This document shows, one piece after another, positions 3,962-52,801 of a stretch of 58,319 nt of DNA. The notes under the pieces are model-generated. The model saw only the letters and a program-made list of their open reading frames with translations, was not told where the DNA came from and made no database searches. A program made the translations under genes and the position numbers. Location: the NCBI GenBank assembly GCA_900767595.1, contig CAAFZS010000052.1, positions 1 through 58,319 on the forward strand, read 5' to 3'. The DNA is from Bacteroidales bacterium. Lineage in GTDB: Bacteria; Bacteroidota; Bacteroidia; Bacteroidales; Paludibacteraceae. Numbering within the stretch: the stretch's first letter is position 1; each line of letters starts with the position of its first letter.

Positions 3962-6465
3962 CCTACGGATATTTTGATGATAAGAACAGGGAGTACGTGA
4001 TTGAAAATCCCGCTACCCCTTTCCCTTGGATTAACTACCTTGGTAACGAAGATTTCTTCGGACTGATATCCAATACAGCCGGTGGTTACACCTTCTGTAA
4101 GGATGCCAAGTTCCGCCGTATCACCCGCTATCGCTATAACGGCGTGCCTATGGATGCCGGCGGCCGGTACTTCTATATCAAAGACGGTGACATCGTTTGG
4201 AACCCGGGATGGAAACCATGTAAGACCCCCCTCGATAAGTATGAGTGCCGTCACGGTATGAACTATACCCGCATCACGGGAACGAAGAATGGGGTAGAGG
4301 CCTCTCTGCTCACTTTTGTACCCCTGCATACTTGGGCAGAAGTGCACAAATTACAAATCACAAATCATACATCACAAATCAAACATCTAAAGCTTTTCAG
4401 CTTTGCTGAATGGTGCCTCTGGAATGCCTCTACGGATATGGAGAACTTCCAACGGAACTGGAGTACGGGGGAGATAGAAGTGGAAAGTGAAAGTGAAAGT
4501 GGAGAGTTTACAAGTATTTACCATAAGACGGAGTATAAGGAAAGACGGGATCACTACGCTTTCTATGCCTTGGCGAATCGCAAAGCCGATGGTTGGGATA
4601 CGGACCGCGAGTCGTTTATCGGTTTATATAACGACTTCTCCAATCCGCAATGCGTGATGAAGGGTAAGCCCGCTATGTCCGTTGCCCACGGCTGGAGCCC
4701 GATTGCTTCGCACTACGTGGAACTGACCCTCCAACCCGGCGAGAGCCAAGACCTTATCTTCCTGCTCGGTTATGTAGAGAACGAACAGGACAACAAGTTC
4801 TCAGCTGCCGATATCGAGCGCAAACGCAAAGGCGAACTTATCAGTTCCCAAGATAGTGACGTGACCTTAGTTAATAAAGCGCGCGCGCACGAACTTATCG
4901 AGCGTTTCGCCACCGTCGAAGCGGTGGATAAGGCTTTTGCTGAACTCCGCACGCTTTGGGACGGATTGCTCAGTACGTTTGCGGTCGAGAGCAAGGATGA
5001 ACGCCTCAACCGTATGGTGAACATCTGGAACCAATACCAATGTATGATCACCTTCTGCTTCAGCCGTTCTGCCTCGTTCTTTGAGTCGGGCATAGGTCGT
5101 GGCATGGGCTTCCGCGATAGTAATCAGGACCTCGTCGGATTTGTGCACCAGATTCCAGAACGTGCTCGCGAACGAATCATCGATATAGCCTCTACGCAGT
5201 TCCCTGACGGAGGCTGCTATCACCAATACCAACCGCTCTCCAAACGCGGGAACAACGATATCGGTGGCGGATTCAATGATGACCCGATGTGGCTAATCTT
5301 TGGTACAGTCGCTTATATCAAAGAGACGGGCGATTACTCGATCTTGGACGAGATGGTGCCTTTCGACAACCAACCCGGTACGGAAGTCACTCTACTCGAA
5401 CACCTGTGTATCAGTTTTGACCACGTAGTCAATAACCTCGGCCCACAACACTTACCCTTGATTGGTCGCGCCGACTGGAACGACTGTCTGAACCTCAACT
5501 GCTTCAGTTGGGACCCGAACGAGAGCTTCCAAACAACCGAGAATAAAACCGAAGGCAGTAAGGCCCAATCGCTGATGATTGCCGGTCTGTTCGTGTTCTG
5601 CGGACGAGACTATGTCTCGTTAGTGGAGAGTTTAGAGTGTAGAGTGGAGAGTAGTGTAGAGTTGAATAAGTTGAGAGTGGAAGCAGAAAGGGCGCAAGCG
5701 GAGATAGATAAGATGATTGAAGCCGTTAAGCAGTACGGCTGGGACGGCGAATGGTACTTGCGTGCATACGATTATTTCGGCAATAAGATTGGTTCCAACG
5801 AGAACGAAGAAGGAAAGATCTTCATCGAATCCCAAGGCTTCTGCACTATGGCGGAGATAGGCAAAGAGGATGGACTGGTAGATAAAGCCCTCGACAGCTG
5901 TAAGAAATACTTAGATACCCCTCACGGAATGGTACTCAACCATCCGGCTTTCACCACCTACCACGTGGAGATGGGCGAGATATCTTCCTATCCGGCAGGC
6001 TACAAGGAGAATGCCGGTATCTTCTGCCATAACAACCCGTGGGTGATCATCGGCGAGGCGAAGGCTGGTCGCGGTAACGATGCGTGGGAACACTATACGA
6101 AGATTGCTCCCGCTTGGATAAAGGACCAAGATCTGCACAAGATTGAACCCTACGTTTATTGTCAGATGGTAGCCGGTAAGGATGCGGCTAAACCCGGCGA
6201 AGGAAAGAACTCTTGGCTCACGGGTACCGCTGCTTGGAACTGGCTCACTGTATCGCAGTATATCCTCGGTATCCAACCCGGATTCAATGAACTCATCATC
6301 GATCCCTGTATCCCTGCCAATATGGATGGTTTTACCGTACATCGTCGCTGGCGCGAGGCGGAATATGAGATTATCGTTCGCAACCCGAACCATAAACAGA
6401 AAGCGGACCAACCGACGGTAGTAGCTTATCACCCCGGCAAACAAACCATTGAAATAATATTATGA
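3958..6465 (+). CDS. GH94 cellobiose/cellodextrin-type phosphorylase
   Basis: 835 aa. The N-terminus [46 protein letters not shown] is typical of GH94. Hosts repeats at 4345, 4477 and 5621. Confidence 0.85.
4345..4387 (+). repeat. mini-repeat family D (CACAAAT heptamer variants), in frame in GH94
   Basis: cacaaattacaaatcacaaatcatacatcacaaatcaaacatc encodes [14 protein letters not shown]. Confidence 0.75.
4477..4506 (+). repeat. mini-repeat family H (AGTGAA hexamer), in frame in GH94
   Basis: gaagtggaaagtgaaagtgaaagtggagag encodes [10 protein letters not shown]. Confidence 0.75.
5621..5680 (-). repeat. mini-repeat family B (CTCTAAA/CTCTACA heptamers, G-poor strand is minus), in frame in GH94
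   Basis: tagtggagagtttagagtgtagagtggagagtagtgtagagttgaataagttgagagtgg encodes [20 protein letters not shown]. Confidence 0.9.
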
Positions 6466-7514
6466 AAAACGTAACTTACATTTTGTTAGGATTGATTTTG
6501 ACCGCTTGCGGTCAGGCTCCTACGCCCGCACAAGCGCTCATAGAGCGTATGACCGAACTAAGTAAGAAAGGTATTATGTATGGTCACCAAGATGACCCCT
6601 TCTACGGCACTACCTGGCAATGGGAAAAAGGCCGCTCGGATACCTACGAACTCGTAGGTGACTACCCGGGCGTGATGGGCTTTGACTTAGGCGGACTGGA
6701 AGAAAAACATGATAAGAACCTCGATAGTGTACCCTTTGAGTGGATACGCGAGGAAGCTGTCAATCATGTTAAAAACGGAGGTGTGGTCACCTTCTCTTGG
6801 CATCCGCGTAACCCTCGTACCGGTAGTAACGCTTGGGACGTAAGTGACCCGACGACGGTACAAAACATCCTTCCCGGTGGCGAACAACACGAACTATTCG
6901 TAGAATGGATGAACGATGTGGCTACATTCTTGGAGACGTTGGTGGATGAGAACGGTCAACCGATTCCGTTTATCCTCCGCCCGTGGCACGAGTATAACGG
7001 TTCGTGGTTCTGGTGGGGTTGGAAAAACTGCACCAACGAGCAGTGGCTCGCTCTTTGGAATATGTTCCAAGACTATATGAACGAGCGTATGCCGACGAAT
7101 ATCGTGTGGTGCTGCTCTCCTAACCTCGACGGACATTTCACGACCGAATACTTAGAGTCCCGCTTCCCCGAACAAGGACGCGTAGATATCCTTGGTTACG
7201 ACACCTACCAATGGGGAACAGAGAAAGATTTCGTTGAGCAATCAACAGCGGATATTAACTTCCTTTATGCTTACGCTCAGTCGCATGGGATGCTTTTCAC
7301 CATTAGCGAGTGCGGTATTCAAAACTCTCCCGTAGCCGACTGGTGGACGCGCGTCTTCCTGCCTTTGACCGAAGGCAAAGAGGTTTGCTATTTCCTCCCT
7401 TGGCGTAACTGGCATAAAGAACATTTCGGTGCTGCTAAAGGCCTCGCTACCGAAGAAGACTTTATTAAACTATATAAAAAACCAAGAACATTGTTCCTAA
7501 AAGATTTACAATAA
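6462..7514 (+). CDS. GH26 beta-mannanase/mannobiohydrolase lipoprotein
   Basis: Lipobox LILTAC. GH26 motifs WHPRNP and [14 protein letters not shown]. Start overlaps the GH94 stop by 4 nt. Confidence 0.8.
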
Positions 7515-7515
7515 T

Positions 7516-8859
7516 ATGGCTTCAATTAAAGAAAAACTCGCTTATGCACTTGGTGATGCTGCTGCCGGTGGTATCACGTGGAAAATTATGTCTATTGCCT
7601 TTCCGCTATTCTTTACCAATGTCTTTGGCTTAAGTTTCGCGGATGCAGCAATATTAATGCTCGTGGCTCGTCTGTTTGATGTAGTGACCGATCCTATCCT
7701 CGGTTCACTGGCAGACCGCACGCAGTCCAAATGGGGAACCTATCGTCCGTGGCTCATCTTCGGTGCTATTCCTTACGGACTGATCTTCGCCCTCTTGCTC
7801 TTTACCCCTGACCTCGGTCCTGTTGGTAAACGGGTATATGCCTATACGCTTTATCTGATGATGATGGCTATCTACACGGCAGTGAATGTGCCCTATGGCT
7901 CTTTGCTGGGTGTAATGACCGAAGATGATAATGAGAAAAACGAGTTCTCCTCCTATCGAATGGTAGGTGCTTATCTGATGGGATTCATTACCTTGGCTAT
8001 CTTCCCCTATGTGCAGCGTTGGATTGGCGGAACAGAGGCGCACCAATATGCCGTTATCGGTGTGATTTTTGGTGTTTTGGCTGCGGTGATGACCCTCATC
8101 TGCGGACTATGCACGAAGGAGCGTATCAAACCCAAACGCGCAGAGCATTATACGGCTAAACAGTTTGTGGATTTAGTCAAAAATAAACCTTGGCTCTACC
8201 TCACCGGTATGGGTATATTGACCAATTTCTTCAATGGTTTCCGCTATGCTGCGGCAGGGTATATGTTCACTTACTGTTTAGGAGGTGATGTGACGTGGGG
8301 TAAGGTGATTATTAACTTCACCGTCTTTATGGCGATAGGTGAGGTAACGTGTATGATCTTTGGTGGTATCTCGCCCGCCTTCACTAAATGGGTGGGCAGC
8401 AAACGTAAAGCTTTCCTGCTCGCAGGACTCATCTGCGCCATCACTTCGGTATTATTCTTCTTTATCCCGATGGATGCCAATTATATGTGGCTGATGATCG
8501 CTGTGGTGATCCTTACCTCTATGGGTATCGGTATCTATTCACCCCTATTGTGGTCAATGTATGCTGACGTAGCTGATTATGCTACCGATACGTTTGGAAC
8601 ATCCTCTACAGGACTGATTTTCTCCTCGGGTACGATGGCTCAAAAACTCGGCGGAGCGATCTCGGGTTCCCTTATCGCTGCTTTGTTAGGCGCTGCGGGA
8701 CTTGTCTCCTCCCAGGATATGTTGACGGGCGAAACGATAGTAACCATTACCAACGAACAATCCGTTCAGTCTATGATCTGGTTACTTTTCTCCCTTATCC
8801 CGGCAGGTATCGCCTTAGTGATGATGCTGCTAACCTATAAATATCCGATTAAAAAGTAG
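7516..8859 (+). CDS. GPH-family (MFS) glycoside:cation symporter
   Basis: 447 aa and polytopic. The N-terminus KEKLAYALGDAAAGGITW is typical of glycoside-pentoside-hexuronide symporters. Its position next to the epimerase matches the known mannobiose pathway gene order. Confidence 0.8.
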   Translation: MASIKEKLAYALGDAAAGGITWKIMSIAFPLFFTNVFGLSFADAAILMLVARLFDVVTDPILGSLADRTQSKWGTYRPWLIFGAIPYGLIFALLLFTPDLGPVGKRVYAYTLYLMMMAIYTAVNVPYGSLLGVMTEDDNEKNEFSSYRMVGAYLMGFITLAIFPYVQRWIGGTEAHQYAVIGVIFGVLAAVMTLICGLCTKERIKPKRAEHYTAKQFVDLVKNKPWLYLTGMGILTNFFNGFRYAAAGYMFTYCLGGDVTWGKVIINFTVFMAIGEVTCMIFGGISPAFTKWVGSKRKAFLLAGLICAITSVLFFFIPMDANYMWLMIAVVILTSMGIGIYSPLLWSMYADVADYATDTFGTSSTGLIFSSGTMAQKLGGAISGSLIAALLGAAGLVSSQDMLTGETIVTITNEQSVQSMIWLLFSLIPAGIALVMMLLTYKYPIKK

Positions 8860-8888
8860 TGTAGAGTGGAGAGTTTAGAGTTTAGAGA
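8857..8888 (-). repeat. mini-repeat family B spanning the symporter stop and the epimerase start
   Basis: tagtgtagagtggagagtttagagtttagaga contains the TAG stop (8857-8859) and the GTG start (8866). Confidence 0.9.
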
Positions 8889-10044
8889 TATATTGACGAC
8901 GAATATCCTGCCTTACTGGTTGCGGTTGCAGGATAAGGAACAGGGTGGGTTCTACGGGCAGGTGCTCGCAGACGAGACGGTAGTACAGCATGCGAATAGA
9001 GGAGCTATCCTTTATGGTCGTATCCTCTGGACCTTCTCCGCCGCCTATCGCGCGCTGGGAAAGAAGGAGTATCTGGCAGCAGCCAATCAAGCGAAAAACT
9101 ATATCCTCAACCATTTTATCGATAAACAACAGGGTGGGGTATATTGGGAATTGGATTACTTAGGCAACCCTGTCAACGACCGCAAACAGTTCTATGCGTT
9201 GGGTTTTGTCCTCTATGGCTTAACGGAGTATATCCTCGCTACGGGCGATACATCCGTGTTGCCGTACGCTATCGACCTCTACCATTGTATAGAAGACCAT
9301 GCTTGGGACCTGCAATCGGGTGGTTATATCGAGGCTACAGAGCGCGATTGGAGTGCTATCTCCGATTACCGATTGAGTGAGAAAGATGTCAATGCACCTA
9401 AATCGCAAAACACCCACCTGCATATTTTAGAACCCTATACGAATCTCTATCGCGTATGGCCACAAGAGGAAGTGAAACGATCTATCTTGCGTCTGATTGA
9501 CGTCTTCAAAAACCATATCATTCAACCTTCCGGTCACCTTGGCCTGTTTTTCGATTACGACTGGAATGTCTTACAGCGAAGCGGTCTTTCAGCCGAAGGC
9601 GGTCTGTCAGCGCAGCGGTCTGCCAGCGTAGCGGTCCCTTTCAGTTGCGGTCACGATATCGAATTCTCGTGGTTGCTTGATGAAGCCTGTGAGGTCATCG
9701 GTGTGAACGAAGACGAAACGGTACAACGGGTAGCCACGGCAGCCAAAGAGGGACTCTTGTCTGACGGGCGAATGGAAGGAACATGGTGGGAACAATGCGA
9801 GACAATCATCGGTTATGAAAATATCTACCGCCGCTTTGGAGACGAAGAAAGCAAACGCATTGCCGAGCGTTGTTGGCAGGCAACCCAACAACACTTCATC
9901 GACTACGAGCATGGCGAGTGGTGGGAGTATCCCAATCTTCAATCTTCAATCTTCATTCGTCATTCCGACAAGGCCGGCTTCTGGAAATGTCCATACCATA
10001 ATTCACGTTTATGTTTACAAATAATGCTTTATGAAACACACTAA
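8866..10044 (+). CDS. cellobiose 2-epimerase (N-acylglucosamine 2-epimerase superfamily)
   Basis: 392 aa with ILPYWL...GGFYG and an AGE-fold pattern. Only a GTG start is available and it lies inside repeat 8857-8888. Also hosts repeats at 9574 and 9933. Confidence 0.75.
   Translation: MESLEFRDILTTNILPYWLRLQDKEQGGFYGQVLADETVVQHANRGAILYGRILWTFSAAYRALGKKEYLAAANQAKNYILNHFIDKQQGGVYWELDYLGNPVNDRKQFYALGFVLYGLTEYILATGDTSVLPYAIDLYHCIEDHAWDLQSGGYIEATERDWSAISDYRLSEKDVNAPKSQNTHLHILEPYTNLYRVWPQEEVKRSILRLIDVFKNHIIQPSGHLGLFFDYDWNVLQRSGLSAEGGLSAQRSASVAVPFSCGHDIEFSWLLDEACEVIGVNEDETVQRVATAAKEGLLSDGRMEGTWWEQCETIIGYENIYRRFGDEESKRIAERCWQATQQHFIDYEHGEWWEYPNLQSSIFIRHSDKAGFWKCPYHNSRLCLQIMLYETH
9574..9652 (+). repeat. 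mini-repeat family C (16/17-nt unit CAGCGGTCTTTCAGCG), in frame in the epimerase
   Basis: About 5 degenerate units encoding QRSGLSAEGGLSAQRSASVAVPFSCG. Confidence 0.9.
9933..9958 (+). repeat. mini-repeat family A (TCTTCAA heptamer), in frame in the epimerase
   Basis: caatcttcaatcttcaatcttcattc encodes NLQSSIFI. Confidence 0.9.
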
Positions 10045-11497
10045 ATTTTTAGCAGTATTGCTACTATCCACAATCCACTATCCACTATCCACAATGATGG
10101 CTATTCAATTGCCATCACTGATAGGGGACAATATGTTGTTACAACAACAAACGAATGTTAACCTTTGGGGAACTGCTACGCCTGGTAACACCGTATCGGT
10201 TTATGCCACTTGGGGTGAACAAGCCGAAACCAAGGCCGGCAAAGATGGACGTTGGTCCGTGACATTGGCTACGCCTACTGCCTCTTATACGGAGCATACC
10301 CTCACGTTCGTGGAGACTCCTACCAAACGGGCTTATTATAACCCCGATCCGGTGCAAGTGAACCATGTGCTCATCGGTGAGGTGTGGTTCGGTAGTGGAC
10401 AAAGTAACATGGAGATGCCCCTTATGGGTTTCTGGCAATGTCCTACCGAAGGTGCGAATAAAGAGATTGCTACCGCAGGGAATTATGCCGGTAAGATTCG
10501 TTACGCTATCATTGATCATGTACAAGCGACTACTCCTCAAGAGAATGTGTCGGGTGGCTGGTACGAATGCAATGCCTTCAATGCTCCCCGTTTTGGGGCA
10601 GCAGCCTATTTCTTTGCAAAGATGCTGCAACAAGCATTGGATATTCCCGTGGGTATCATCAACTGTTCTTGGGGCGGCAGCCGCGTAGAAGGTTGGCTCC
10701 CTCGTGAGATTCTCAATACCTACAAAGATGTAGACCTCTCCGACAAAGCTATGAAAGAGATTGCAGATAAACAACTCTATCTCAGTCCGCTCATTATGCA
10801 CGACGGTATGCTTTGGCCTTGCCATTATTATACAGTCAAAGGTTGGCTTTGGTACCAGGGTTGCTCTAATGTAGGTCACGCAGACACCTATACCGATCGT
10901 ATGGAGACCCTCGTTAAGTATGTCCGCGGATTATGGAAGAATGATAAGATGCCGTTCTATTTTGTGGAGATAGCCCCCTTCCGCCATGGCGATGCCGATG
11001 CCGCTTGGGCTGCCGAACTGCGCGAATCGCAATGGGCATTAGAGGATCGTGTACCTTACTGCAAAGGAATCTCTACCAACGACCTCGTTTATGACTATGA
11101 GATAGATAATGTACATCCCGCACAGAAACAAATGGTAGGCGAACGCCTTGCGTATTTGGCTCTTAACCATGACTATGGTTTTAAGACCGTCTATGCCGAT
11201 GCTCCGCGTTATGAACATCACGAAATCAGTGGCAACCATATCGATGTCTATTTCACCAACTGCGCTGACGGCTTCTCTCGTTGGCACGACTACAAAGGCT
11301 TTGAAGTCATTGACGAAAAAGGAAACGTACACCCGGCTATCATCGAGGGCGTACAAGACGTGCCTCACGCACTGCGCTTCTCTGCCGAAGGCGTAGAACA
11401 TCCGACGGCGGTTCGCTACTGCTTCCGCAATTTCCAAATAGGTAATCTTGCTAATATGCGCTATTTACCTATCGTTCCCTTCCGTACGGACAAATAA
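10031..11497 (+). CDS. SASA-family (sialate O-acetylesterase-like) carbohydrate esterase, probable acetyl-mannan esterase
   Basis: Contains the SGNH-like block GEVWFGSGQSNMEMPL. The signal peptide contains repeat 10064-10095. Confidence 0.7.
   Translation: MKHTKFLAVLLLSTIHYPLSTMMAIQLPSLIGDNMLLQQQTNVNLWGTATPGNTVSVYATWGEQAETKAGKDGRWSVTLATPTASYTEHTLTFVETPTKRAYYNPDPVQVNHVLIGEVWFGSGQSNMEMPLMGFWQCPTEGANKEIATAGNYAGKIRYAIIDHVQATTPQENVSGGWYECNAFNAPRFGAAAYFFAKMLQQALDIPVGIINCSWGGSRVEGWLPREILNTYKDVDLSDKAMKEIADKQLYLSPLIMHDGMLWPCHYYTVKGWLWYQGCSNVGHADTYTDRMETLVKYVRGLWKNDKMPFYFVEIAPFRHGDADAAWAAELRESQWALEDRVPYCKGISTNDLVYDYEIDNVHPAQKQMVGERLAYLALNHDYGFKTVYADAPRYEHHEISGNHIDVYFTNCADGFSRWHDYKGFEVIDEKGNVHPAIIEGVQDVPHALRFSAEGVEHPTAVRYCFRNFQIGNLANMRYLPIVPFRTDK
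10064..10095 (+). repeat. mini-repeat family D (CCACAAT/CCACTAT), in the esterase signal peptide
   Basis: ctatccacaatccactatccactatccacaat encodes STIHYPLSTM. Confidence 0.9.
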
Positions 11498-11520
11498 TTC
11501 TTCAATCTTCAATCTTCAAT
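11497..11520 (+). repeat. mini-repeat family A filling the esterase/GH5-GH27 intergenic gap
   Basis: attcttcaatcttcaatcttcaat runs from the last base of the TAA stop to 1 nt before ATG 11522. Confidence 0.9.
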
Positions 11521-13564: not shown

Positions 13565-15528
13565 CCCTACTCATCGCTCTGACCACATTATTACTCAATG
13601 CCGATTGGCATTTTCACTTGGGTAACGCTGCCGATCCTCAACAGGACTTTGGCTGCGGTACAGAGTATTTCAATTACTTCACCAAAGCGGCGAGTATTCA
13701 CAACGAAGGACCCTACGTCCCTTCCTTCAACGACTCCGCTTGGCAGGTGGTACAGATTCCTCACGATTGGGCAACGACCCTGCCTTATGCACCCGAAGCC
13801 AGCCATAGCCATGGCTACCAAACGATTGGCTATGCCTATCCCGAATATAGTGTAGGGTGGTATCGCAAGATGGTTACGCTTGATACGGTCGATTATACAA
13901 CCCCTCATCACCTTGTCTTTGAGGGTATCTTCCGCGATGCGCGCGTGTGGGTCAACGGGTTTTATGTGGGACATACCGAGAGCGGATACTTGACGCAGAC
14001 CTATACCGTGACCGATTATCTGCACGCAGGCGATAACCTCATCTGTGTGCGCGTAGATGCCTCTCTCCAAGAGGGATGGTTCTACGAGGGTGCCGGCATC
14101 TACCGCAATGTCTATTTGACGATAGGCGACCATAGTCTTACAGCGAGTGAAACGAGCGGTCTTTCAGCAAAGCGGTCTTTCAGCGAAGCGGTCTTTCAGC
14201 CGAAGGCGGTCTTTCCTCCCCTCCATGGAGTGTGCTTACACCAGGACCACGGCGGGGTAGGGATTGCGGTCACGAAAGGACTGATGGAGTATCGTCTTCG
14301 CAAACTCATGGACTTGGGTGTGAACGCTATCCGAACTGCTCACCATCCCGCTGCACCCGACTTATTAGATTTATGCGATAGTCTCGGTCTTTATGTCATC
14401 GAAGAGAACCGGCTGATGGGAGCTTCTGAACAAGACTATCAAGCCCTTCAACAGATGATAGAACGCGATAAACATCACCCCTCTATCCTCCTTTGGAGCA
14501 TAGGCAATGAGGAATGGGCACTCGAATGGAACGAGACGGGCGAACGCATTGCCCGAACGATGACCCGATGGTGCCATGAACTCGACAGCACTCGACCTGT
14601 CACCGTCGCTACTTCCTCCGGACCGAATGTGGTTTGGGGCGTTGATGTGGCTGGCTTCAACTATATGAAACAGAATAACCTCGCCTCTTTCCATGACTCG
14701 TTTCCTGAGCGTCTGGCCGTTATGACCGAAGAGACCACCGGCTGCGGTACGCGAGGCATAGCTATGTATAACGACGCCATCGAACATGGATGGCAAAACG
14801 TACTTGATAACGATTGGATACGGGGAATCTTCTATTGGACGGGTTTTGACTATAAAGGCGAACCTAATCCTGCCCAGTGGCCTTCCGTAAGCAGTTTATT
14901 TGGTGTACTTGACTTATGCGGTTTTCCTAAAGACGAAGCGTATTTCCTGCAATCCGTCTGGACGGATAAACCGGTACTGCATATCCTTCCCCATTGGAAT
15001 CTTGATGGACAGGAAGGAGATAGCGTCGCCGTGTGGGTATATTCGAATATGGATGAGGTCGAACTGCGTGTCAACGGCAAACGCCTCACCCGCCAGACGA
15101 TGCCTAAAGTAGGACACCTTGAGTGGAAAACCATCTATCAACCCGGTTCTGTCGAAGCTATCGGTTATAAGAACGGCAAAGTAACTAAACGCGAGAAAGT
15201 CTATACCGCTGGTCCGGCAACACAAGTAAGTTTTGATACGGTGACCTATAGCGGTACCACCATCATGGATGTCACTTTGCTCGATAAGAAAGGACATTTC
15301 TGTCCCACTGCTTGTGACTCTATTCAAGTGGAGTGGACACAACCCGTCCGCATCTTAGGTTACCATAACGGCAACCCCACTGCCCATCTTCAATCTTCAA
15401 TAGTCAATAGTCAATCTTCAATCATAATCCCTGCCTTCAATGGCCATGCACAAATTATTTATGAAAATCTTCAATCTTCATTCTTCAATCTTCATTCTAA
15501 CAATCTTACTGCTCGTATCGTGCGCTAA
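13561..15528 (+). CDS. GH2 glycosidase (beta-galactosidase/beta-mannosidase type), atypically short
   Basis: Motifs WHFHLG...WQVVQIPHDW, NAIRTAHHP, WSIGNEEW and FYWTGFDYKGEP. Repeat 14141-14216 sits where the Ig-like domain is expected. The C-terminal tail is built from repeats. Confidence 0.7.
   Translation: MTLLIALTTLLLNADWHFHLGNAADPQQDFGCGTEYFNYFTKAASIHNEGPYVPSFNDSAWQVVQIPHDWATTLPYAPEASHSHGYQTIGYAYPEYSVGWYRKMVTLDTVDYTTPHHLVFEGIFRDARVWVNGFYVGHTESGYLTQTYTVTDYLHAGDNLICVRVDASLQEGWFYEGAGIYRNVYLTIGDHSLTASETSGLSAKRSFSEAVFQPKAVFPPLHGVCLHQDHGGVGIAVTKGLMEYRLRKLMDLGVNAIRTAHHPAAPDLLDLCDSLGLYVIEENRLMGASEQDYQALQQMIERDKHHPSILLWSIGNEEWALEWNETGERIARTMTRWCHELDSTRPVTVATSSGPNVVWGVDVAGFNYMKQNNLASFHDSFPERLAVMTEETTGCGTRGIAMYNDAIEHGWQNVLDNDWIRGIFYWTGFDYKGEPNPAQWPSVSSLFGVLDLCGFPKDEAYFLQSVWTDKPVLHILPHWNLDGQEGDSVAVWVYSNMDEVELRVNGKRLTRQTMPKVGHLEWKTIYQPGSVEAIGYKNGKVTKREKVYTAGPATQVSFDTVTYSGTTIMDVTLLDKKGHFCPTACDSIQVEWTQPVRILGYHNGNPTAHLQSSIVNSQSSIIIPAFNGHAQIIYENLQSSFFNLHSNNLTARIVR
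14141..14216 (+). repeat. mini-repeat family C, in frame in GH2
   Basis: Units agcggtctttcagc(a/g/c) x4 encoding SGLSAKRSFSEAVFQPKAVF. Confidence 0.9.
15385..15429 (+). repeat. mini-repeat family A (with AGTCAAT variant units), in frame in the GH2 C-terminal region
   Basis: catcttcaatcttcaatagtcaatagtcaatcttcaatcataatc encodes HLQSSIVNSQSSIII. Confidence 0.9.
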
Positions 15529-17938: not shown

Positions 17939-17954
17939 ATCACAAATCACAAAA
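17921..17954 (+). repeat. mini-repeat family D (CACAAAT) across the GH31 stop and intergenic gap
   Basis: aataaatcacaactataaatcacaaatcacaaaa. Confidence 0.8.
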
Positions 17955-37605: not shown

Positions 37606-37626
37606 CGACTAATCACTAACGACTAA
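37582..37626 (+). repeat. mini-repeat family E (14-nt TAACGACTAATCAC x3) spanning the nuclease stop and the ribF start
   Basis: ctaaaactaacgactaatcactaacgactaatcactaacgactaa. The TAA stop at 37603-37605 lies inside it, and its last base is the A of the ribF ATG (37626). Confidence 0.95.
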
Positions 37627-43892: not shown

Positions 43893-43933
43893 CTTCTCTA
43901 AACTCTAAACTCTACACTCTACACTCTAAACTA
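43874..43933 (+). repeat. mini-repeat family B filling the TonB-receptor/PorT-like intergenic gap
   Basis: The core ctctaaactctaaactctacactctacactctaaacta (43896-43933) abuts the receptor TAG stop. A degenerate part overlaps the PorT-like TTG start. Confidence 0.9.
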
Positions 43934-46564: not shown

Positions 46565-46962
46565 TGTACGGCTTGATTATAGCCATCGGTTCCGTGACCG
46601 ATGATGCTGTGTTGACAAACGTCTGTTAATAGACTGGTTCTGCGGAATGGTTCTCTATTCAAAATATTACTAATATGCACTTCCACGACAGGAACGGTAC
46701 ATAACTCAATGGCATCCCTTATACTTACGCTCGTGTGCGTGTACCCGCCCGCGTTTAATATAATGCCGTCGCAATCGGCGGCTTGCAGCCAATCAATGAT
46801 ATCCCCTTCGTGGTTACTCTGCTTATACGTGAAGCAAACATCGTGCCAAAGTCGTTGGAGTTCGATTAAAATCGTCTCCATCGACTTTGTACCATAAATC
46901 TTCGGGTCTCTTTTCCCGAGTAGATTTAGATTCGGACCATTAATAATGAGAATATTCTTCAT
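46537..46962 (-). CDS. aroQ: type II 3-dehydroquinate dehydratase
   Basis: Contains ILIINGPNLNLLG...QSNHEG...NAGGYTHTSV...EVHISN. Confidence 0.9.
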   Translation of the reverse strand: MKNILIINGPNLNLLGKRDPKIYGTKSMETILIELQRLWHDVCFTYKQSNHEGDIIDWLQAADCDGIILNAGGYTHTSVSIRDAIELCTVPVVEVHISNILNREPFRRTSLLTDVCQHSIIGHGTDGYNQAVQWLNEHYSH

Positions 46963-47005
46963 TCTTCATTCTTCATTCTTCAATCTTCAATCTTCAATCT
47001 TCAAT
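46954..47005 (+). repeat. mini-repeat family A (CATTCTT then CAATCTT units) filling the rho/aroQ intergenic gap
   Basis: attcttcattcttcattcttcattcttcaatcttcaatcttcaatcttcaatc. It abuts the rho stop (47006) and includes the aroQ ATG (46960-46962 on the minus strand). Confidence 0.95.
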
Positions 47006-48745
47006 CTACCTCGCCCCATTGACGGCGAGCAGGAACTCGTCATTATCGTTGGTTCGCTCCATGTAGGATTTGAGTTTCTCCATAGCTTCGATACCATTCA
47101 TATCACTGAGTTGTTTACGTATCTGCCACATACGAGATAATACATCTTCCGGTAATAGCAGGTCATCGCGACGCGTACTGGATGCCGGAATATCCACAGC
47201 GGGGAAGATACGTTTGTTCGATAGTTTGCGATCCAGCTGCAACTCCATGTTTCCTGTACCCTTGAACTCCTCGAAGATAAGGTCATCCATCTTACTACCC
47301 GTTTCGGTCAAAGCCGTAGCGATAATCGTCAGACTACCGCCATTCTCAATGTTTCGGGCAGCACCAAAGAAACGTTTAGGCTTGTGAAGTGCTTGGGCCT
47401 CCACACCACCGGACAACACTTTACCGCTTGCAGGGGCTACCGTGTTATAGGCACGTGCCAAACGTGTGATAGAGTCGAGTAGGATAACCACGTCGTGACC
47501 ACATTCCACTAATCGTTTTGCTTTCTCGTGTACGATATTCGCTACCTTAACGTGGTTCTCTGCGGGTTCATCAAAGGTCGAAGCAATCACTTCGGCTTTG
47601 ACGCTACGCGCCATATCGGTAACTTCCTCCGGACGCTCGTCAATGAGCAGCACAATCATATACACCTCGGGGTGGTTGGCGGAAATAGCGTTGGCAATCT
47701 CTTTTAACAAAACGGTCTTACCGGTCTTTGGTTGCGCCACAATCAGTCCGCGTTGACCCTTACCGATAGGAGCAAAGAGGTCTATGATACGCACGCTCAA
47801 CGGATCACTCTTATCGCCCTTGCAGAGTTTGAACTTCTCATCAGGGAAGAGAGGCGTTAAGTTCTCAAACGCTGTACGACGCTTCGCTTGCTCGGGATCA
47901 AGTCCGTTGACGCGGATCACTTTATCTAATGGGAAATATTTATCCGTCTCTTTGTTAATGCGTATCGTGCACTCAACCGTATCACCGGTTTTGAGACCAT
48001 ATTGCTTGATTTGCTGTTGACTCACATAGATGTCATCAGGAGACGAGAGGTAGTTGTAATCCGCAGAACGTAAGAACCCGTATCCGTCTTGTACGCTTTC
48101 TAATGTTCCCATCGCAATCACGTTCTCTCCCAAACTCAATTGGGGTTCCTCCGGTTTTTCCGGCGTTGCCGGTGTTTCCGGATTTTCCGGTGTTTCCGGT
48201 TTTTCCGGCATCTTTGCATCCTCTACCTTTGCCGATTCCTCTACCTTTACCTTCGGTTTGCGTCCCCGCTTCTTTGGCTGTGGTTTGGGTTCCTCTGCTG
48301 CGGGAGCAGGTGTGGAAGCAGATGTCGGAGCAGACTCTGCCTGCGGTCCCTCCAACGTCGCCTCGATTTGTTGCAAAGGTTTACGGGCCTCGACAGCCGC
48401 TACGGTGCGGTTCTTGCGGTGCTCTACCTTTGCTTGGGTGTGTTGCAACTCGTGGAGCGTCTCTTTTTCATCTCCAACGGTAGCGCCGGTGATTTTCTGT
48501 TCTAAGTCTTGGGTCTCCACCTTTTCTACTTTGGGCGCCTGCGCTTGGCGAATGCGCACACGCTCGCGCTTACTGGTCTCTTTTGCCTGTACTTCTACCG
48601 CACGTTGGTCGGCTTGCGCGTCCAAGATACTATAAGCAATCATCTTGGGAGTCTGACTGCGACGAGTCTTTAAACCCAACGAGTCGGCTACCTCACGTAA
48701 CTCTTCGAGCGACATACGCTCGAGTCTTTTCATATCATACTGCAT
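47006..48745 (-). CDS. rho: transcription termination factor Rho with a long disordered N-terminal insertion
   Basis: ORF trimmed to ATG 48745; ATG 48733 is an alternative. Walker A AQPKTGKT and RNA-binding domain GFLR. K/E/P-rich insert. Confidence 0.9.
48151..48209 (-). repeat. in-frame 9-nt tandem repeat (NNTTTCCGG on the plus strand) in the rho N-terminal insert
   Basis: ccggtttttccggcgttgccggtgtttccggattttccggtgtttccggtttttccggc. The sense strand encodes [20 protein letters not shown]. Confidence 0.85.
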
Positions 48746-50651: not shown

Positions 50652-51386
50652 CTTGCCAATATCTAACATCTGATAATCCTCCGGCTCATAGGCTTGGAGG
50701 ATTTCTTTTTGACATATATCGAGGTAGAAATCAATGAGTGAAAACACATCTTCTTCCTTATCTAATAGACGCGCGCATACGCGAGGACTTAAAATCTGCA
50801 TCCCGCTAAAAGCCAATCTTTCAGCGTCAGCGGTCTTACAGCGCAGCGGTCTTTCAGCGCAGCGGTCTTTCAGCGTTAGCGGTCTTACCTCTCCTGTAGA
50901 GATGTTCTCCCATCCAATCATTCGCCTCTGCTTGTCAAACAGCAGATATCGGCTTGTCTCCCGTTTACTCACCACAAGTCGGCTGATTCCATCTTTCTCG
51001 TATGCCTCTATCAATGCCTTCAAGTCGATATTACTTAATATATCCACATTGAGTGCCAATATACTCTCAACTTTAGAACTACTCTCAACTCTACACTCTA
51101 AACTCTCAACTCTTTTTAGTCCTCCTCCGGTATCAAGCAATTGCTCTCTTTCATCGCTTACCATTAGGTGGCAATCAAAATAATCGTGTTCTTGTAAGTA
51201 GTTGAGAATCAGGTCAGGAAAGTGGTGTGTATTGATGTAGATATCCCGTATTCCGGCATCGCGCACCATCTCTATTTGCCATTGTAGCAACGTCTTGCCT
51301 CCTACTTCCACGAGGGCTTTGGGCTTGTCGTTAGTAATGGGTTGTAGGCGGGTACCGAGTCCCGCGGCAAAAATCATCGCTTTCAT
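50574..51386 (-). CDS. sugar-1-phosphate nucleotidyltransferase (MurU-like)
   Basis: Begins MKAMIFAAGLGTRLQPITNDKPKALV. Hosts repeats 50817 and 51063. The 3' end overlaps the convergent lipid-kinase gene by 78 nt. Confidence 0.75.
   Translation of the reverse strand: MKAMIFAAGLGTRLQPITNDKPKALVEVGGKTLLQWQIEMVRDAGIRDIYINTHHFPDLILNYLQEHDYFDCHLMVSDEREQLLDTGGGLKRVESLECRVESSSKVESILALNVDILSNIDLKALIEAYEKDGISRLVVSKRETSRYLLFDKQRRMIGWENISTGEVRPLTLKDRCAERPLRCKTADAERLAFSGMQILSPRVCARLLDKEEDVFSLIDFYLDICQKEILQAYEPEDYQMLDIGKLAVIRDGHAERFVETMNLARSHKVH
50817..50888 (+). repeat. mini-repeat family C, in frame (antisense orientation) in the nucleotidyltransferase
   Basis: The unit cagcggtctt(t/a)cagcg is spaced exactly 16 nt apart (50828, 50844, 50860). 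The sense strand encodes LTLKDRCAERPLRCKTADAER. Confidence 0.95.
51063..51113 (+). repeat. mini-repeat family B, in frame in the nucleotidyltransferase
   Basis: actctcaactttagaactactctcaactctacactctaaactctcaactct. The sense strand encodes [17 protein letters not shown]. Confidence 0.9.
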
Positions 51387-52801
51387 AGTACTTTATCAAT
51401 CCCGCGTTCGCGGTGAATAAGGTGAATAGTAACGTTCGGGAAGAGTTGACGGATATGTTCCGCTGTCCGCTCGGCACAATACACGCTGCGATGTTGTCCT
51501 CCGGTGCATCCAAAGGCAATTTGCAGATGGGTGAACTCGCGTTCGATGAAACGTTTTACATGGTGGTCAGTCAATGCCCAGACGGACTGTAAGAAAGTGG
51601 TTATTTCTCCATCTTTCTCTAAAAACTCAATAACCGGTGTATCCAATCCTGTCATCTCACTAAACTCCTTGTATTTACCCGGATTATGGGTGCTTCTACA
51701 GTCAAATACATATCCTCCTCCATTGCCTGTTTCGTCTTCGGGAACACCTCTTTTATACGAAAAAGAATATATTGTTATTGTTAGTCCTTCAGCGCAGCGG
51801 TTTTTCAGCGTCAGCGGTCTTTCAGCGCAGCGGTCTTTCAGCGTTAGCGGTCCTTCAGCGCAGCGGTCTGCCATCTGCTGCAAATATGGGAACTCATTCC
51901 CTAACTCATCGTCCAATACCTTTTTAAGGTTTTTCAGTGCTGCCGGAATAGAAGCCAAAAAATGCTCTTTGCGCTCGAAATATCCCCGATAGCCATAGGC
52001 TCCAAGTACTTGTAGCAAGCGGAAAAGCACGAAATAATTCAGCGTGTCCCAATCGAAACGAATATCGCTAATCTTACCTAATTCTTCTTGATAGCATTGC
52101 AACAGTTCTTCCCGCAAATCGTCCGGTAGTCCTGCTTTAGCTTGCCAAAGGAAAGAAGCTAAATCGTAGTAAATAGGTCCTCTTCGTCCTCCTTGGAAGT
52201 CGATAAAATAGGGTTCGCCGTTAACAATCATCACGTTGCGTGACTGAAAGTCACGGTAGAGAAATGTTTGCGTGTGCACAGAAGCGGAGGCACGACTGCC
52301 TATCAGCCGGTCGGCTAACCGCTCAAACTCGGCTTCTAACTTAGGTTCTGAAAACTCAATCTTTGTTCCCTTGAGAAAACAATATTTAAAGTAATTGAGG
52401 TCCCAGAAGATACTGCGTATATCCATTGTTGGCACGGGGAAACAGACACTCCAGTCGAGGTCTTGAGCTCCCTCTATTTGAATGTGTGCCAAGGCACGAA
52501 TAGTCTTCTTTAAGAGTTCTTTTTCAGTTGTATCAAAAGTACCGGTCTCTCGACCGTTCTTGATGGCATCAAAGAGCGATACATCCCCGAGATCGGTTAC
52601 CTCGTAACTCATCTCGTCTTCGGCCACGGATAGGATGCGAGGCACTGGCAAACCTTTGCTCGCAAAATGCCGTGCCAATGTGATAAACGCGTGGTTTTCG
52701 TCTTTATTTGTTCCTTCTACATGAATAATGGATTGTCCATTCTCACTTAAAACGCGGCTATATTGTCGGTTGCTACCGGCGGATGGAAGATTTTGTGTCA
52801 T
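51383..52801 (-). CDS. aminoglycoside-phosphotransferase-fold sugar kinase (AmgK-like) fused to a RapZ C-terminal-like domain
   Basis: N-terminal APH fold (YRDFQSRNVMI...FIDFQG). C-terminal block FDCRSTHNPG...IAFGCTGGQHRSV resembles the RapZ C-domain. Repeat 51785-51872 forms the linker. Confidence 0.65.
   Translation of the reverse strand: MTQNLPSAGSNRQYSRVLSENGQSIIHVEGTNKDENHAFITLARHFASKGLPVPRILSVAEDEMSYEVTDLGDVSLFDAIKNGRETGTFDTTEKELLKKTIRALAHIQIEGAQDLDWSVCFPVPTMDIRSIFWDLNYFKYCFLKGTKIEFSEPKLEAEFERLADRLIGSRASASVHTQTFLYRDFQSRNVMIVNGEPYFIDFQGGRRGPIYYDLASFLWQAKAGLPDDLREELLQCYQEELGKISDIRFDWDTLNYFVLFRLLQVLGAYGYRGYFERKEHFLASIPAALKNLKKVLDDELGNEFPYLQQMADRCAEGPLTLKDRCAERPLTLKNRCAEGLTITIYSFSYKRGVPEDETGNGGGYVFDCRSTHNPGKYKEFSEMTGLDTPVIEFLEKDGEITTFLQSVWALTDHHVKRFIEREFTHLQIAFGCTGGQHRSVYCAERTAEHIRQLFPNVTIHLIHRERGIDKVL
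51785..51872 (+). repeat. mini-repeat family C forming the kinase/RapZ_C linker
   Basis: Alternating 16- and 17-nt units form a 33-nt in-frame super-unit. The sense strand encodes DRCAEGPLTLKDRCAERPLTLKNRCAEG. Confidence 0.95.

What the first reader, a model, noticed from the sequence alone, without database searches (positions are those of the whole stretch)
4345..51872. Orientation rule: intragenic copies occur only in the stop-free orientation, on top of an overall plus-strand bias
Because 7 and 8 are coprime with 3, a perfect array exposes every reading frame.

- TCTTCAA, CAATCAC and CTACTCCT arrays are stop-free in all frames.
- Their complements contain stops in every frame: TTGAAGA and GTGATTG give TGA, AGGAGTAG gives TAG.

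In all 13 clear intragenic loci of A-type, CAATCAC/CCACAAT-type and F-type arrays (six A/D in plus-strand genes at 4345, 9933, 10064, 15385, 15466 and 37965; two A/D in minus-strand genes at 22881 and 24453; five F), the stop-free strand is the sense strand. This holds for minus-strand genes too: dapA, ligA, usp and the lipoprotein at 41704-43140.

Arrays in the stop-containing orientation relative to their neighbours (46954-47005) are confined to intergenic gaps. Family B has stops in both orientations when perfect. It appears inside genes only as mosaics of variant units, and as a near-perfect array only in an intergenic gap (43896-43933).

Independently, about 26 of 32 oriented loci have the canonical strand on the plus strand (the G-poor strand, or for family C the CAGCGG... 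reading). That includes all five family-C loci and the intergenic copies between minus-strand genes. This hints at a strand-asymmetric origin linked to replication or ssDNA, followed by purifying selection.
Basis: partly seen in the sequence, partly recalled or inferred. Interest (0 to 1): 0.65.

Follow-up and report, generated by a model that had tools for sequence, protein, structure and literature searches.

The report
Stop-avoiding tandem repeats inside genes
This Bacteroidales genome carries many 7-, 8- and 16/17-base tandem repeats, some inside essential genes, and they persist there only in readings without a stop codon, which is what ordinary selection predicts rather than a special orientation mechanism.

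Summary
The repeats are real: 31 arrays in 58 kb against about 0.6 in shuffled sequence. About two thirds lie inside Pfam-supported genes such as dapA, ligA, ribF and several glycoside hydrolases.

The stop-codon arithmetic is correct for TCTTCAA, CAATCAC/CACAAAT and CTACTCCT. It is wrong for CCACAAT, whose complement is also stop-free. All 11 informative intragenic arrays of these families have the stop-free strand as sense, but an intact ORF forces this.

Tests that are not circular point to a selection filter:
- Arrays between genes show no co-orientation with their neighbours (window and relatives 10 vs 13; TCTTCAA arrays across phyla 22 vs 29).
- None of the 9 flanking-gene pairs checked, out of 13 anti-oriented arrays, is a split gene.
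- Stop-prone readings do occur in genes when one frame stays open. CTCTAAA arrays lose only the in-frame TAA. Antisense 16/17-nt arrays alternate 16 and 17 nt, giving a 33-nt period.

The plus-strand excess (24 of 30) follows mainly from 70% of coding sequence being on the plus strand. A residue remains (17.4 expected, p≈0.003), concentrated at 43.9-52.8 kb. Orientation-locked arrays are equally dense in both gene orientations, which argues against a strong strand-biased origin. A link to replication could not be tested.

More notable: the same sites in DapA, LigA, RibF and a kinase carry different repeat families in close relatives.

The parts
639..658 (+). CCACAAT-type heptamer array in the gap upstream of the GH26 gene
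   Evidence: All frames are open on both strands, so it says nothing about the rule.
4345..4387 (+). CACAAAT/CAATCAC-type array inside GH94 (aa 130-144, within the supersandwich domain). Sense strand is the stop-free strand.
   Evidence: open frames 3 vs 0.
5622..5662 (-). CTCTAAA-family array read antisense (AGTGGAG...) inside the GH94 catalytic domain (aa 555-569). It uses the only open frame.
8858..8887 (-). CTCTAAA-family array, anti-oriented. It fills the 6-nt MFS|epimerase spacer and overlaps both ORF ends.
9574..9636 (+). 16/17-nt family C array (CAGCGGTCTTTCAGCG), sense, in the GlcNAc-2-epimerase-like gene (aa 237-257)
9933..9955 (+). TCTTCAA array, sense, in the epimerase-like gene (aa 356-364)
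   Evidence: 3 vs 0 open frames.
10063..10095 (+). CCACAAT/CCACTAT mosaic encoding aa 11-22 (signal-peptide region) of the SASA-family esterase
11499..11520 (+). TCTTCAA array that makes up 22 of the 24 nt of a spacer between co-directional genes
14155..14215 (+). Family C array, sense, in GH2 (aa 199-219)
15386..15423 (+). TCTTCAA/TAGTCAA mosaic, sense, in the GH2 C-terminal domain (aa 609-621)
15466..15507 (+). TCTTCAA/TCTTCAT array read in two frames: the GH2 C-terminal tail and the GH31 lipoprotein signal peptide
15683..15713 (+). CTCTAAA mosaic, sense, in GH31 (aa 82-92). The in-frame TAA units are edited.
15861..15931 (+). CTCTAAA/CTCTACA/CTCTCAA mosaic, sense, in GH31 (aa 141-164)
16193..16227 (+). 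CTACTCCT octamer array, sense, in GH31 (aa 252-263)
   Evidence: 3 vs 0.
17924..17953 (+). CACAAAT-type array that spans the GH31 stop codon and part of the spacer
17976..18050 (+). Family C array encoding aa 4-29 of the GH5 lipoprotein signal peptide
20670..20711 (-). CTACTCCT-family array, sense, in the minus-strand usp-like gene (aa 41-54). The orthologous array is present in L002.
22885..22918 (-). (TCTTCAA)x4.9, sense, in minus-strand dapA (aa 85-96). It replaces surface helix alpha-3 and is a hotspot in relatives.
24453..24482 (-). CCACAAT-type array in the ligA linker between the OB fold and the Zn finger (aa 393-402). A hotspot in relatives, but uninformative for the stop rule.
33464..33538 (+). 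ACTAACG/ACTAATA array (stops on both strands) that makes up 72 of the 74 nt of a spacer and ends 2 nt before a start codon
35005..35035 (+). CTCTAAA array, sense, in the DHODH-like gene (aa 83-93). Only the in-frame unit is edited.
37192..37223 (+). CTACTCCT-family array, sense, in the EEP-family gene (aa 319-329)
37587..37627 (+). ACTAACG/ACTAATC array that covers the stop codon of the EEP-family gene, the whole 20-nt spacer and the ribF start
37968..38022 (+). (CAATCAC)x5.9, sense, in ribF between the FAD-synthetase and riboflavin-kinase domains (aa 115-133). A hotspot in all 16 clade relatives.
40991..41026 (+). TCCTTTCA octamer array, sense, near the C-terminus of the C10 peptidase (aa 853-864)
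41914..41949 (-). CTACTCCT-family array, sense, in the minus-strand beta-helix protein (aa 398-409)
42323..42345 (-). CAGAGAGG octamer array in the same gene (aa 266-273). The plus strand lacks T, and I read no stop on either strand. L124 carries GCCTCTCT in the corresponding gene.
   Evidence: The stop-free reading is by eye from the sequence, not computed.
43896..43932 (+). CTCTAAA/CTCTACA array, anti-oriented, that makes up 35 of the 38 nt of the spacer between two minus-strand OMP genes
46956..47007 (+). (TCTTCAT)4(TCTTCAA)4, anti-oriented, filling the whole 43-nt rho|aroQ spacer. The rho stop and the aroQ ATG lie in its end units.
50817..50886 (+). Family C array read antisense in the minus-strand NTP-transferase gene (aa 167-190). 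One open frame; unit spacings 17, 16, 16.
51081..51113 (+). CTCTAAA-family array read antisense in the NTP-transferase gene (aa 92-102)
51784..51869 (+). Family C array read antisense in the interdomain linker of the APH/RapZ-C gene (aa 311-340). Period 33 nt; copy number differs by one 33-nt unit in a 98%-identical protein.

Best explanation
The window comes from an uncultured Bacteroidales clade near Paludibacteraceae. Its genome carries many short tandem repeats of the STRR / long-SSR kind, with units of 7, 8 and 16/17 nt.

Inferred step: arrays arise and change length by slipped-strand mispairing or a related process, in either orientation and anywhere in the genome.

Shown step: the arrays that remain have passed a coding filter. 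A 7-, 8-, 16- or 17-nt period exposes all three frames. An array therefore survives in an ORF in one of three ways:
(a) The sense strand is stop-free in every frame. This applies to families whose G-poor strand has little or no G and no TAA: TCTTCAA, CAATCAC, CTACTCCT and forward C.
(b) Only the units whose TAA falls in frame are edited (CTCTAAA).
(c) Unit lengths alternate 16 and 17 nt, giving a 33-nt in-frame period that keeps TGA out of frame (antisense C).

Everything else is confined to spacers between genes. Many spacers consist almost wholly of an array.

A strand without G can form only one of the three stop codons (TAA). This is why the G-poor strand is nearly always the sense strand. 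The plus-strand excess is mainly the result of this sense rule combined with 70% of coding sequence lying on the plus strand.
For: - Stop arithmetic.
- Arrays lie between Pfam-aligned segments of conserved enzymes.
- In the window plus 49 related loci, arrays with a clearly G-poor strand are sense in 42 of 49 genic cases.
- In spacers between co-directional genes there is no preference: 8 co-oriented vs 11 anti-oriented for non-C arrays, and 10 vs 13 with family C included.
- Exact (TCTTCAA)3 or longer arrays in 120 blocks from many phyla: 28 embedded in ORFs in sense, 22 intergenic co-oriented, 29 intergenic anti-oriented (p = 0.40).
- Flanking genes were checked for 9 of the 13 anti-oriented arrays (three in the window, two in L001, four by Pfam in other loci). 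All are complete and unrelated to each other, so none is a split gene.
- CTCTAAA arrays in genes: TAA is lost in 8 of 8 in-frame units but kept in 13 of 19 out-of-frame units. In spacers it is kept in 5 of 9.
- Antisense C arrays: sums of successive unit spacings are a multiple of 3 in 16 of 17 cases, against 33 of 66 in sense arrays (Fisher p = 0.0007). Each antisense C array of the family proper has exactly one open sense frame.
- A 98%-identical APH/RapZ-C protein differs from the window's by exactly one 11-aa (33-nt) unit.
- Arrays occupy 2.0% of coding bases but 9.8% of intergenic bases.
Against: - The central observation is forced by ORF integrity, so it cannot by itself separate selection from mechanism.
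- How arrays originate (slippage or something else) was not observed.
- Identical units at many loci and in many phyla are not explained by slippage plus selection alone. Neither is the replacement of one family by an unrelated one at the same codon positions in sister genomes.
- A residual same-strand clustering remains after gene strand is modelled (window p≈0.003; 20 other loci p = 0.013).
- Genes in loci other than the window were called with a simple longest-ORF rule, not a trained gene finder.
Confidence: 0.8

Rival explanations
1. Array formation or stability depends on the chromosome strand, for example leading versus lagging strand or exposed single-stranded DNA. The canonical strand is laid down mostly on one replication strand, and coding selection acts afterwards. 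It could add to the selection filter and need not replace it.
For: - The window has 24 canonical-on-plus arrays against 17.4 expected from gene strand alone (p≈0.003). Same-strand clustering is also seen in 20 other loci (p = 0.013).
- At 43.9-52.8 kb all five arrays are canonical on plus although the genes are on minus. In the syntenic locus L124, 6 of 7 C arrays are likewise antisense, including arrays in rho and aroQ that the window lacks.
- The APH-NTP block is inverted relative to rpmB-rpmG-DAGK when compared with L170. The APH array is antisense in the window and sense in L170, so in both genomes forward C lies on the sense strand of that backbone.
- Arrays that are viable on either strand are antisense in 7 of 11 cases in locally minority-orientation genes, against 6 of 41 in majority-orientation genes (Fisher p = 0.0025).
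- In all five loci where the observed count differs from the gene-strand expectation by at least 1, the excess lies on the strand that is T-rich at four-fold sites.
Against: - Orientation-locked arrays are equally dense in majority- and minority-orientation genes: 0.105 vs 0.091 per kb. Six were seen where an 85:15 generation bias predicts 1.2 (p = 0.002).
- In the block syntenic to window 20-27 kb, C arrays and all others are canonical on the other strand.
- The supporting cases are few and not independent. L124 is syntenic with the window, the L172 site is orthologous, L126 and L168 look homologous, and L149 is an unrelated 18-mer.
- TCTTCAA orientation does not correlate with local GC skew in 118 loci from other phyla (r = -0.05).
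- The replication direction of the window is unknown. The replication component of skew at four-fold sites is +0.01 for GC and -0.14 for AT.
Confidence: 0.25
2. Arrays are inserted co-directionally with transcription by the generating mechanism itself. The sense rule would then be mechanistic and not the result of selection.
For: G-poor arrays are sense in 42 of 49 genic cases.
Against: - Intergenic arrays between co-directional genes are not co-oriented: 10 vs 13 in the clade and 22 vs 29 across phyla.
- Antisense arrays exist wherever a frame can be kept open.
- Spacers inside runs of co-directional genes, which are presumably transcribed, carry anti-oriented arrays.
Confidence: 0.04
3. The rule is an artefact of ORF calling. 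Stop-free arrays let ORFs run through them and so are scored as intragenic, while the true genes start or end outside the arrays.
For: Some arrays sit at ORF ends. The GH2 tail reads through 15466, 17924 spans a stop codon, and 10063 and 17976 are near N-termini.
Against: - Most arrays are bracketed by Pfam-aligned residues on both sides and by conserved sequence in orthologue alignments.
- The N-terminal arrays precede lipoprotein-type signal peptides, with no alternative start codon between the array and the signal peptide. For GH5 and GH31 this is read directly from the translations.
- The AlphaFold model of DapA places the array-coded residues in a helix of the TIM barrel, with mean pLDDT of 89 and 83 for residues 81-90 and 91-100.
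Confidence: 0.05
4. The arrays are adaptive. They could act as contingency (phase-variation) switches, or as selected hypervariable linker cassettes, with orientation set by that function.
For: - Arrays lie near the 5' ends of lipoprotein and glycoside hydrolase genes, as in classical contingency loci.
- The same sites vary between close relatives.
- Heptanucleotide repeats cause translational phase variation in neuO. PMC13001214 describes NeuO as phase-variable; the mechanistic details are from my own knowledge.
Against: - Arrays also sit in single-copy housekeeping genes (ligA, dapA, ribF, rho, aroQ), where an OFF state would be lethal.
- The only copy-number difference seen is in frame, at 33 nt.
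- The array-coded peptides occupy linkers or a surface helix and roughly preserve length. This looks like tolerance of the repeats, not a function.
Confidence: 0.08

Closest known systems
STRR (short tandemly repeated repetitive) heptamers of heterocystous cyanobacteria, and the 'long simple sequence repeats' of 5-11 nt units described by Mrazek et al. 2007 (as summarised in PMC4679880 and PMC4692102)
   Same: Several families of tandem heptamers are dispersed at many loci in one genome. The phylogenetic distribution is sporadic, heptamers are the dominant unit length, and no transposase or other mobility gene is associated.
   Different: The host here is an uncultured Bacteroidales clade. Units are almost free of G on one strand, and 8-nt and 16/17-nt families are also present. 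About two thirds of arrays lie inside conserved coding sequences, including essential enzymes. The cited papers describe mainly intergenic repeats.
GGGAATC (Xanthomonas) and GGGGA(T/C)T (Nostoc) heptameric repeats (PMC4692102)
   Same: That paper also tabulated orientation relative to neighbouring ORFs. It found repeats about equally on plus and minus strands, enriched between aligned or convergent ORFs, depleted between divergent ORFs, and often next to stop or start codons. I see the same here: convergent 14 vs divergent 4, and spacers filled from stop to start.
   Different: [quoted passage not shown] The arrays here have no G-tracts and are common in genes.
TAACTGA direct repeats of Beggiatoaceae, cyanobacteria and a few Bacteroidetes (PMC4679880)
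   Same: Both are heptamer arrays that sit immediately upstream of start codons in forward orientation. The two ACTAACG/ACTAATA arrays at 33464 and 37587 share a TAAC core with TAACTGA and reach the start codon (33464 ends 2 nt before it; 37587 overlaps it).
   Different: The unit sequence differs. Only this one family in the window behaves that way. A regulatory role was proposed in that paper but was not tested here.
Heptanucleotide VNTR in the neuO coding region of E. coli K1 prophage (NeuO is called phase-variable in PMC13001214; the heptad-repeat details are from my own knowledge)
   Same: A 7-nt unit inside an ORF is translated as a 7-residue peptide repeat, and only copy numbers that keep the frame give full-length protein.
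   Different: neuO is a single contingency locus in an accessory gene. Here there are dozens of loci, many in essential genes, with no evidence of ON/OFF switching.
Orientation-dependent instability of structure-forming repeats relative to the replication fork (triplet-repeat literature; from my own knowledge)
   Same: It offers an established route by which repeat orientation could become biased with respect to the leading or lagging strand.
   Different: No replication direction is known for this window. The data support at most a weak or local effect.

Membership tests
STRR / long simple sequence repeats (5-11 nt units) | Head-to-tail copies of a 5-11 nt unit, three or more copies, far above the chance expectation | tested here: met
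   31 arrays against about 0.6 in shuffles.
STRR / long simple sequence repeats (5-11 nt units) | A few unit families recur at many dispersed loci of one genome | tested here: met
   Families A, B, C, D, E and F each occur at 2-8 loci in 58 kb. The same families occur in related contigs.
STRR / long simple sequence repeats (5-11 nt units) | No associated mobility gene, terminal inverted repeats or target-site duplication (so not a transposable element) | tested here: inconclusive
   No transposase, integrase or reverse transcriptase among the window's Pfam hits. Array flanks were not searched systematically for duplications.
Phase-variable contingency loci (SSR-mediated) | The repeat lies in the 5' coding region or promoter of a dispensable surface, restriction-modification or virulence gene | tested here: not met
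   Some arrays fit (signal peptides of GH31, GH5 and the esterase). Many others are in ligA, dapA, ribF, rho and aroQ.
Phase-variable contingency loci (SSR-mediated) | Copy-number variants that shift the reading frame coexist among close strains | tested here: not met
   The only near-identical pair differs by an in-frame 33-nt unit. Read-level data are not available.
TAACTGA-type start-codon-proximal heptamer repeats | Forward-oriented array within a few nt upstream of a start codon | tested here: met
   Met by the E arrays 33464-33538 and 37587-37627 only.
TAACTGA-type start-codon-proximal heptamer repeats | The unit is TAACTGA | tested here: not met
   The units are ACTAACG, ACTAATA and ACTAACA.
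G-quadruplex-forming heptamer repeats (GGGAATC type) | Runs of three or more G per unit and a preference for four units | tested here: not met
   No unit contains a G-tract. Copy numbers range from 2.9 to 9.7.
Replication-strand-biased repeats | Orientation switches with the replichore once gene strand is controlled | not testable with these tools
   No closed genome of the clade could be read. Skew at four-fold sites in the window is uninformative. Indirect tests disagree.

The most novel reading that the evidence does not exclude
The arrays are not passive slippage products. They are written by an active, polar process, for example templated extension of 3' ends at breaks or forks, or frequent ectopic copying between arrays. 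Such a process would repeatedly overwrite permissive sites.

This would account for four observations:
- Identical units recur across the genome and across phyla.
- Sister genomes carry unrelated families at exactly the same codon positions while length is roughly kept.
- Orientation is coherent within the rho-APH block.
- In other phyla, inverted TCTTCAA pairs always occur as (TTGAAGA)n...(TCTTCAA)n, in 12 of 12 cases.
Probability: 0.1. Interest if true: 0.75.

Novelty: new member of a known kind. Interest (0 to 1): 0.35.

Why it matters
As stated, the orientation rule adds little. It restates the fact that intact genes contain no stop codons. Its useful content is a clear natural example of how repeats whose period is not a multiple of three can live inside ORFs. 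There are three routes: choice of strand, editing of only the in-frame units, and phase-locking to a 33-nt period.

The setting is more interesting than the rule. In this Bacteroidales clade, essential enzymes carry repeat-encoded segments at linkers and at a surface helix. These segments are replaced by different repeat families between close relatives. If that turnover proved to be driven by an active or strand-polar process, it would bear on two open questions. One is how STRR-like repeats spread, which is still unexplained in cyanobacteria and Beggiatoaceae. The other is how low-complexity protein segments originate.

A practical point for annotation: stop-free arrays extend ORFs, create overlapping gene calls, and can supply start codons.

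Tried and rejected
- Fetching the window's own contig by exact-protein look-up failed twice.
- I tried to infer replication direction from skew at four-fold sites. The replication component is +0.01 for GC and -0.14 for AT, which is not decisive. Bulk GC skew follows individual genes.
- TCTTCAA orientation showed no correlation with local GC skew or with gene-strand fraction in 118 loci from other phyla.
- A test based on local majority gene orientation looked significant. On inspection it rested on very few independent genes, so I down-weighted it.
- Rfam and tRNA scans of the window found nothing. The arrays do not match any Rfam family.
- No gene in the window suggests a repeat-writing enzyme.
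- Literature searches found no description of these repeats in Bacteroidales. One search was a malformed query.
- I rejected assembly artefact as an explanation. The same arrays and hotspot sites recur in independent NCBI, ENA and JGI assemblies.
- I rejected a transposon or MITE interpretation for the window's arrays. No terminal inverted repeats or mobility genes were seen, and the arrays replace native sequence and add little or no length.

Full report
**What the window is.** The ORFs are tightly packed: 96% of bases are coding by ORF calls. Pfam identifies three groups of genes:
- A mannan/glucan-utilisation cluster at 1-20 kb, with GH26, GH5, GH94, GH130, GH2 and GH31 enzymes, an MFS transporter and an epimerase.
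- Housekeeping genes: dapA, ligA, ruvC, PFOR, ribF, aroQ, rho and an APH/RapZ-C kinase.
- Bacteroidota-type outer-membrane proteins.

The nearest named proteins come from Paludibacteraceae MAGs. Identity is only 61% for DapA and 43-50% for RibF. A closer clade at about 68-98% identity exists only in metagenomes and MAGs.

**The repeats are real.** I count 31 arrays of period 7, 8 or 16/17 nt and their multiples. Shuffles that approximately preserve dinucleotide content give 0-3, with a mean of about 0.6. The families are:
- A: TCTTCAA
- D: CAATCAC / CACAAAT
- D2: CCACAAT
- B: CTCTAAA
- E: ACTAACG / ACTAATA
- F: CTACTCCT, plus the variant TCCTTTCA
- C: CAGCGGTCTTTCAGCG(N)

One strand of every 7- and 8-nt family has little or no G.

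**The stop arithmetic.** Perfect A, D, F and forward-C arrays have no stop in any frame, and their complements have stops in all three. B and E have stops on both strands. One correction is needed. The complement of CCACAAT is also stop-free. The arrays at ligA (24453) and at 639 are therefore uninformative, and 10063 is only weakly informative.

**Are the arrays really intragenic?** Most are. Pfam alignments bracket the arrays in GH94, GH2, GH31, DapA, LigA, RibF, the EEP-family protein, the C10 peptidase and the beta-helix protein. Orthologue alignments show conserved sequence on both sides.

An AlphaFold model of the window's DapA has a mean pLDDT of 87. It places most of the array-coded residues 85-96 in helix alpha-3 of the TIM barrel (H82-92).

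Three arrays encode parts of signal peptides, in GH31, GH5 and the esterase. The array at 15466 is read in two frames by the overlapping GH2 and GH31 ORFs.

All 11 informative A/D/F arrays in genes have the stop-free strand as sense. This outcome is forced. A perfect array of three or more units in the other orientation cannot be part of an ORF.

**Tests that are not circular.**
1. Arrays free of coding constraint. In the window plus 49 related loci there is no co-orientation with flanking co-directional genes: 8 vs 11 for non-C arrays, and 10 vs 13 overall. I also scanned GTDB genomes for exact (TCTTCAA)3. Of 97 classifiable arrays, 28 sit in ORFs in sense, 22 are intergenic and co-oriented, and 29 are intergenic and anti-oriented (p = 0.40).
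2. Split genes. There are 13 anti-oriented arrays. I checked the flanking genes for 9 of them and all lie exactly between the stop and start of complete, unrelated genes. Examples are rho|aroQ, OMP|OMP, MFS|epimerase, Na/H exchanger|UvrA, DUF4956|VTC, Dus|7TM-HD and DUF6089|RadA-like. No array-split pseudogene was found.
3. Stop-prone readings inside genes. They occur wherever one frame can be kept open. The arrays at 5622, 50817, 51081 and 51784 each use the single open sense frame.
4. Family B. In genic B arrays the TAA is lost in 8 of 8 in-frame units but kept in 13 of 19 out-of-frame units. That retention is no lower than the 5 of 9 seen in spacers.
5. Antisense C arrays. Unit lengths alternate 16 and 17 nt. 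Sums of successive spacings are a multiple of three in 16 of 17 cases, against 33 of 66 in sense arrays, where 16+16 is the commonest pair (p = 0.0007).
6. Copy-number change. A 98%-identical APH/RapZ-C protein differs from the window's by exactly one 33-nt unit.

Together these results say that orientation is filtered and not set when the array forms. A strand without G can form only TAA among the three stops, which explains the general result that the G-poor strand is sense in 42 of 49 genic arrays.

**The plus-strand excess.** I count 24 of 30 oriented arrays with the canonical strand on plus. Seventy percent of coding sequence is on plus. I took sense probabilities from loci other than the window and L124: 84% for non-C arrays and 90% for C arrays. 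A model using these values expects 17.4 arrays on plus. The observed excess has p≈0.003.

The excess has two sources. Spacer arrays contribute 8 of 9 on plus. The block at 43.9-52.8 kb contributes five arrays that are all canonical on plus although the genes there are on minus.

The syntenic locus L124, from GCA_045627765.1, shows the same pattern. Six of its seven C arrays are antisense, including arrays in rho and aroQ that the window lacks.

The APH-NTP block is inverted relative to rpmB-rpmG-DAGK when compared with L170, where the APH array is sense. This fits an effect of chromosome strand.

Arrays that are viable on either strand are also antisense more often in locally minority-orientation genes: 7 of 11 against 6 of 41.

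The evidence against a general bias is substantial:
- Orientation-locked arrays are equally dense in majority- and minority-orientation genes (0.105 vs 0.091 per kb). Six were seen where an 85:15 generation bias predicts 1.2.
- In the block syntenic to window 20-27 kb, the C arrays of L001 lie on the opposite strand.
- The supporting cases reduce to very few independent genes.
- TCTTCAA orientation is unrelated to GC skew in 118 loci from other phyla.
- The window's replication direction cannot be inferred. The replication component at four-fold sites is +0.01 for GC skew and -0.14 for AT skew.

My conclusion is that a local or weak strand effect is possible but not shown.

**What else is there.** Four sites in conserved proteins carry repeat-encoded peptides of different families in close relatives, while total length stays close to that of outgroups:
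- DapA helix alpha-3: [11 protein letters not shown] / ITNHKSQ / ESLNSKLSTLN / INNQQAAIS. A second site carries arrays only in relatives.
- The LigA linker between the OB fold and the Zn finger: families D2, C, a B-like sequence and an 18-mer. The cassettes measure 33, 42, 33 and 45 nt between identical flanks.
- The RibF interdomain segment: all 16 clade members carry array-derived sequence where the outgroups do not.
- The APH/RapZ-C linker: antisense C, sense C and other families.

Seven spacers between co-directional genes consist almost wholly of an array, and none of the divergent gaps does. This matches published heptamer-repeat surveys (PMC4692102).

**Comparison with what is known.** These arrays belong to the STRR / long-SSR phenomenon (PMC4679880, PMC4692102). 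That phenomenon has no accepted mechanism of spread. I found no description of it for Bacteroidales, and none with this degree of coding occupancy, in the searchable literature.

**Verdict.** The orientation rule is a correct but largely tautological observation, and selection explains it. The replication-linked reading remains an untested hypothesis with mixed indirect evidence.

Noticed in passing
window 22885-22918 (dapA), 24453-24482 (ligA), 37968-38022 (ribF), 51784-51869 (APH/RapZ-C); alignments A1, A2, A3; L001-L003: At the same codon positions, close relatives (about 70-98% identity) carry repeat-encoded peptides from different, often unrelated, families. Length stays close to that of outgroups. 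The sites behave as hypervariable cassettes in housekeeping enzymes.
   Followed up: partly
Many co-occurring units share an AATC core (AATCTTC, AATCACC, AATCCAC, AATCAAC, AATCATC).
   Followed up: partly
L007, L015, L018, L025, L034, L058, L060, L063, L065, L100, L104, L123: Where TCTTCAA arrays occur as inverted pairs within 400 bp, all 12 are arranged (TTGAAGA)n-gap-(TCTTCAA)n and none the converse (binomial p = 0.0005). I have no explanation. The pattern is compatible with repeats being added to both 3' ends of a break, or with a rule that the stop-rich orientation follows a stop codon and the stop-free orientation precedes a start codon.
   Followed up: no
L004-L123: Intergenic TCTTCAA arrays lie between convergent genes 14 times and between divergent genes 4 times (p = 0.03). 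In the window no array lies in a divergent (promoter) gap.
   Followed up: partly
window 46956-47007: The rho|aroQ spacer is entirely (TTGAAGA)4(ATGAAGA)4 on the sense strand. The aroQ start ATG-AAG-A is the last ATGAAGA unit, and the rho stop codon sits at the other edge of the array. The ATGAAGA units look like tandem copies of the native start region.
   Followed up: partly
window 15440-15528: The GH2 ORF reads through the stop-free array at 15466 for 89 nt into the GH31 ORF. The same array is translated in two frames, as the GH2 tail and as the GH31 lipoprotein signal peptide. The true GH2 stop may have been displaced.
   Followed up: no
window 48150-48208: A 9/27-nt repeat (TCCGGTGTT) inside rho encodes PE(K/T)PE... 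in the N-terminal insertion region. It is an ordinary in-frame repeat of a different kind from the 7/8/16-nt families.
   Followed up: no
window 49713-52801 vs L170 9084-12177: The APH/RapZ-C plus NTP-transferase gene pair is inverted relative to rpmB-rpmG-DUF4295-DAGK when compared with a 67%-identical relative.
   Followed up: partly
window 1-20282: A co-directional cluster of GH26 (x2), GH5 (x2), GH94, MFS transporter, epimerase, SASA esterase, alpha-galactosidase, GH2, GH31 and GH130 looks like a mannan/galactomannan utilisation locus. Thirteen arrays lie within the ORFs of this cluster.
   Followed up: no
L126 1545-4448 (UvrA), L140 1-1761 (Mfd), L124 14070-15890 (rho): In related contigs, DNA-repair and transcription factors also carry several arrays each, including antisense family C arrays.
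   Followed up: no
window 50817-50886 and 51784-51869: By eye, the two antisense C arrays share a block of roughly 37 nt (GGTCTTTCAGCGCAGCGGTCTTTCAGCGTTAGCGGTC) with the same order of variant units. This hints at copying between arrays or at convergent frame constraints. I did not check it with a tool.
   Followed up: no
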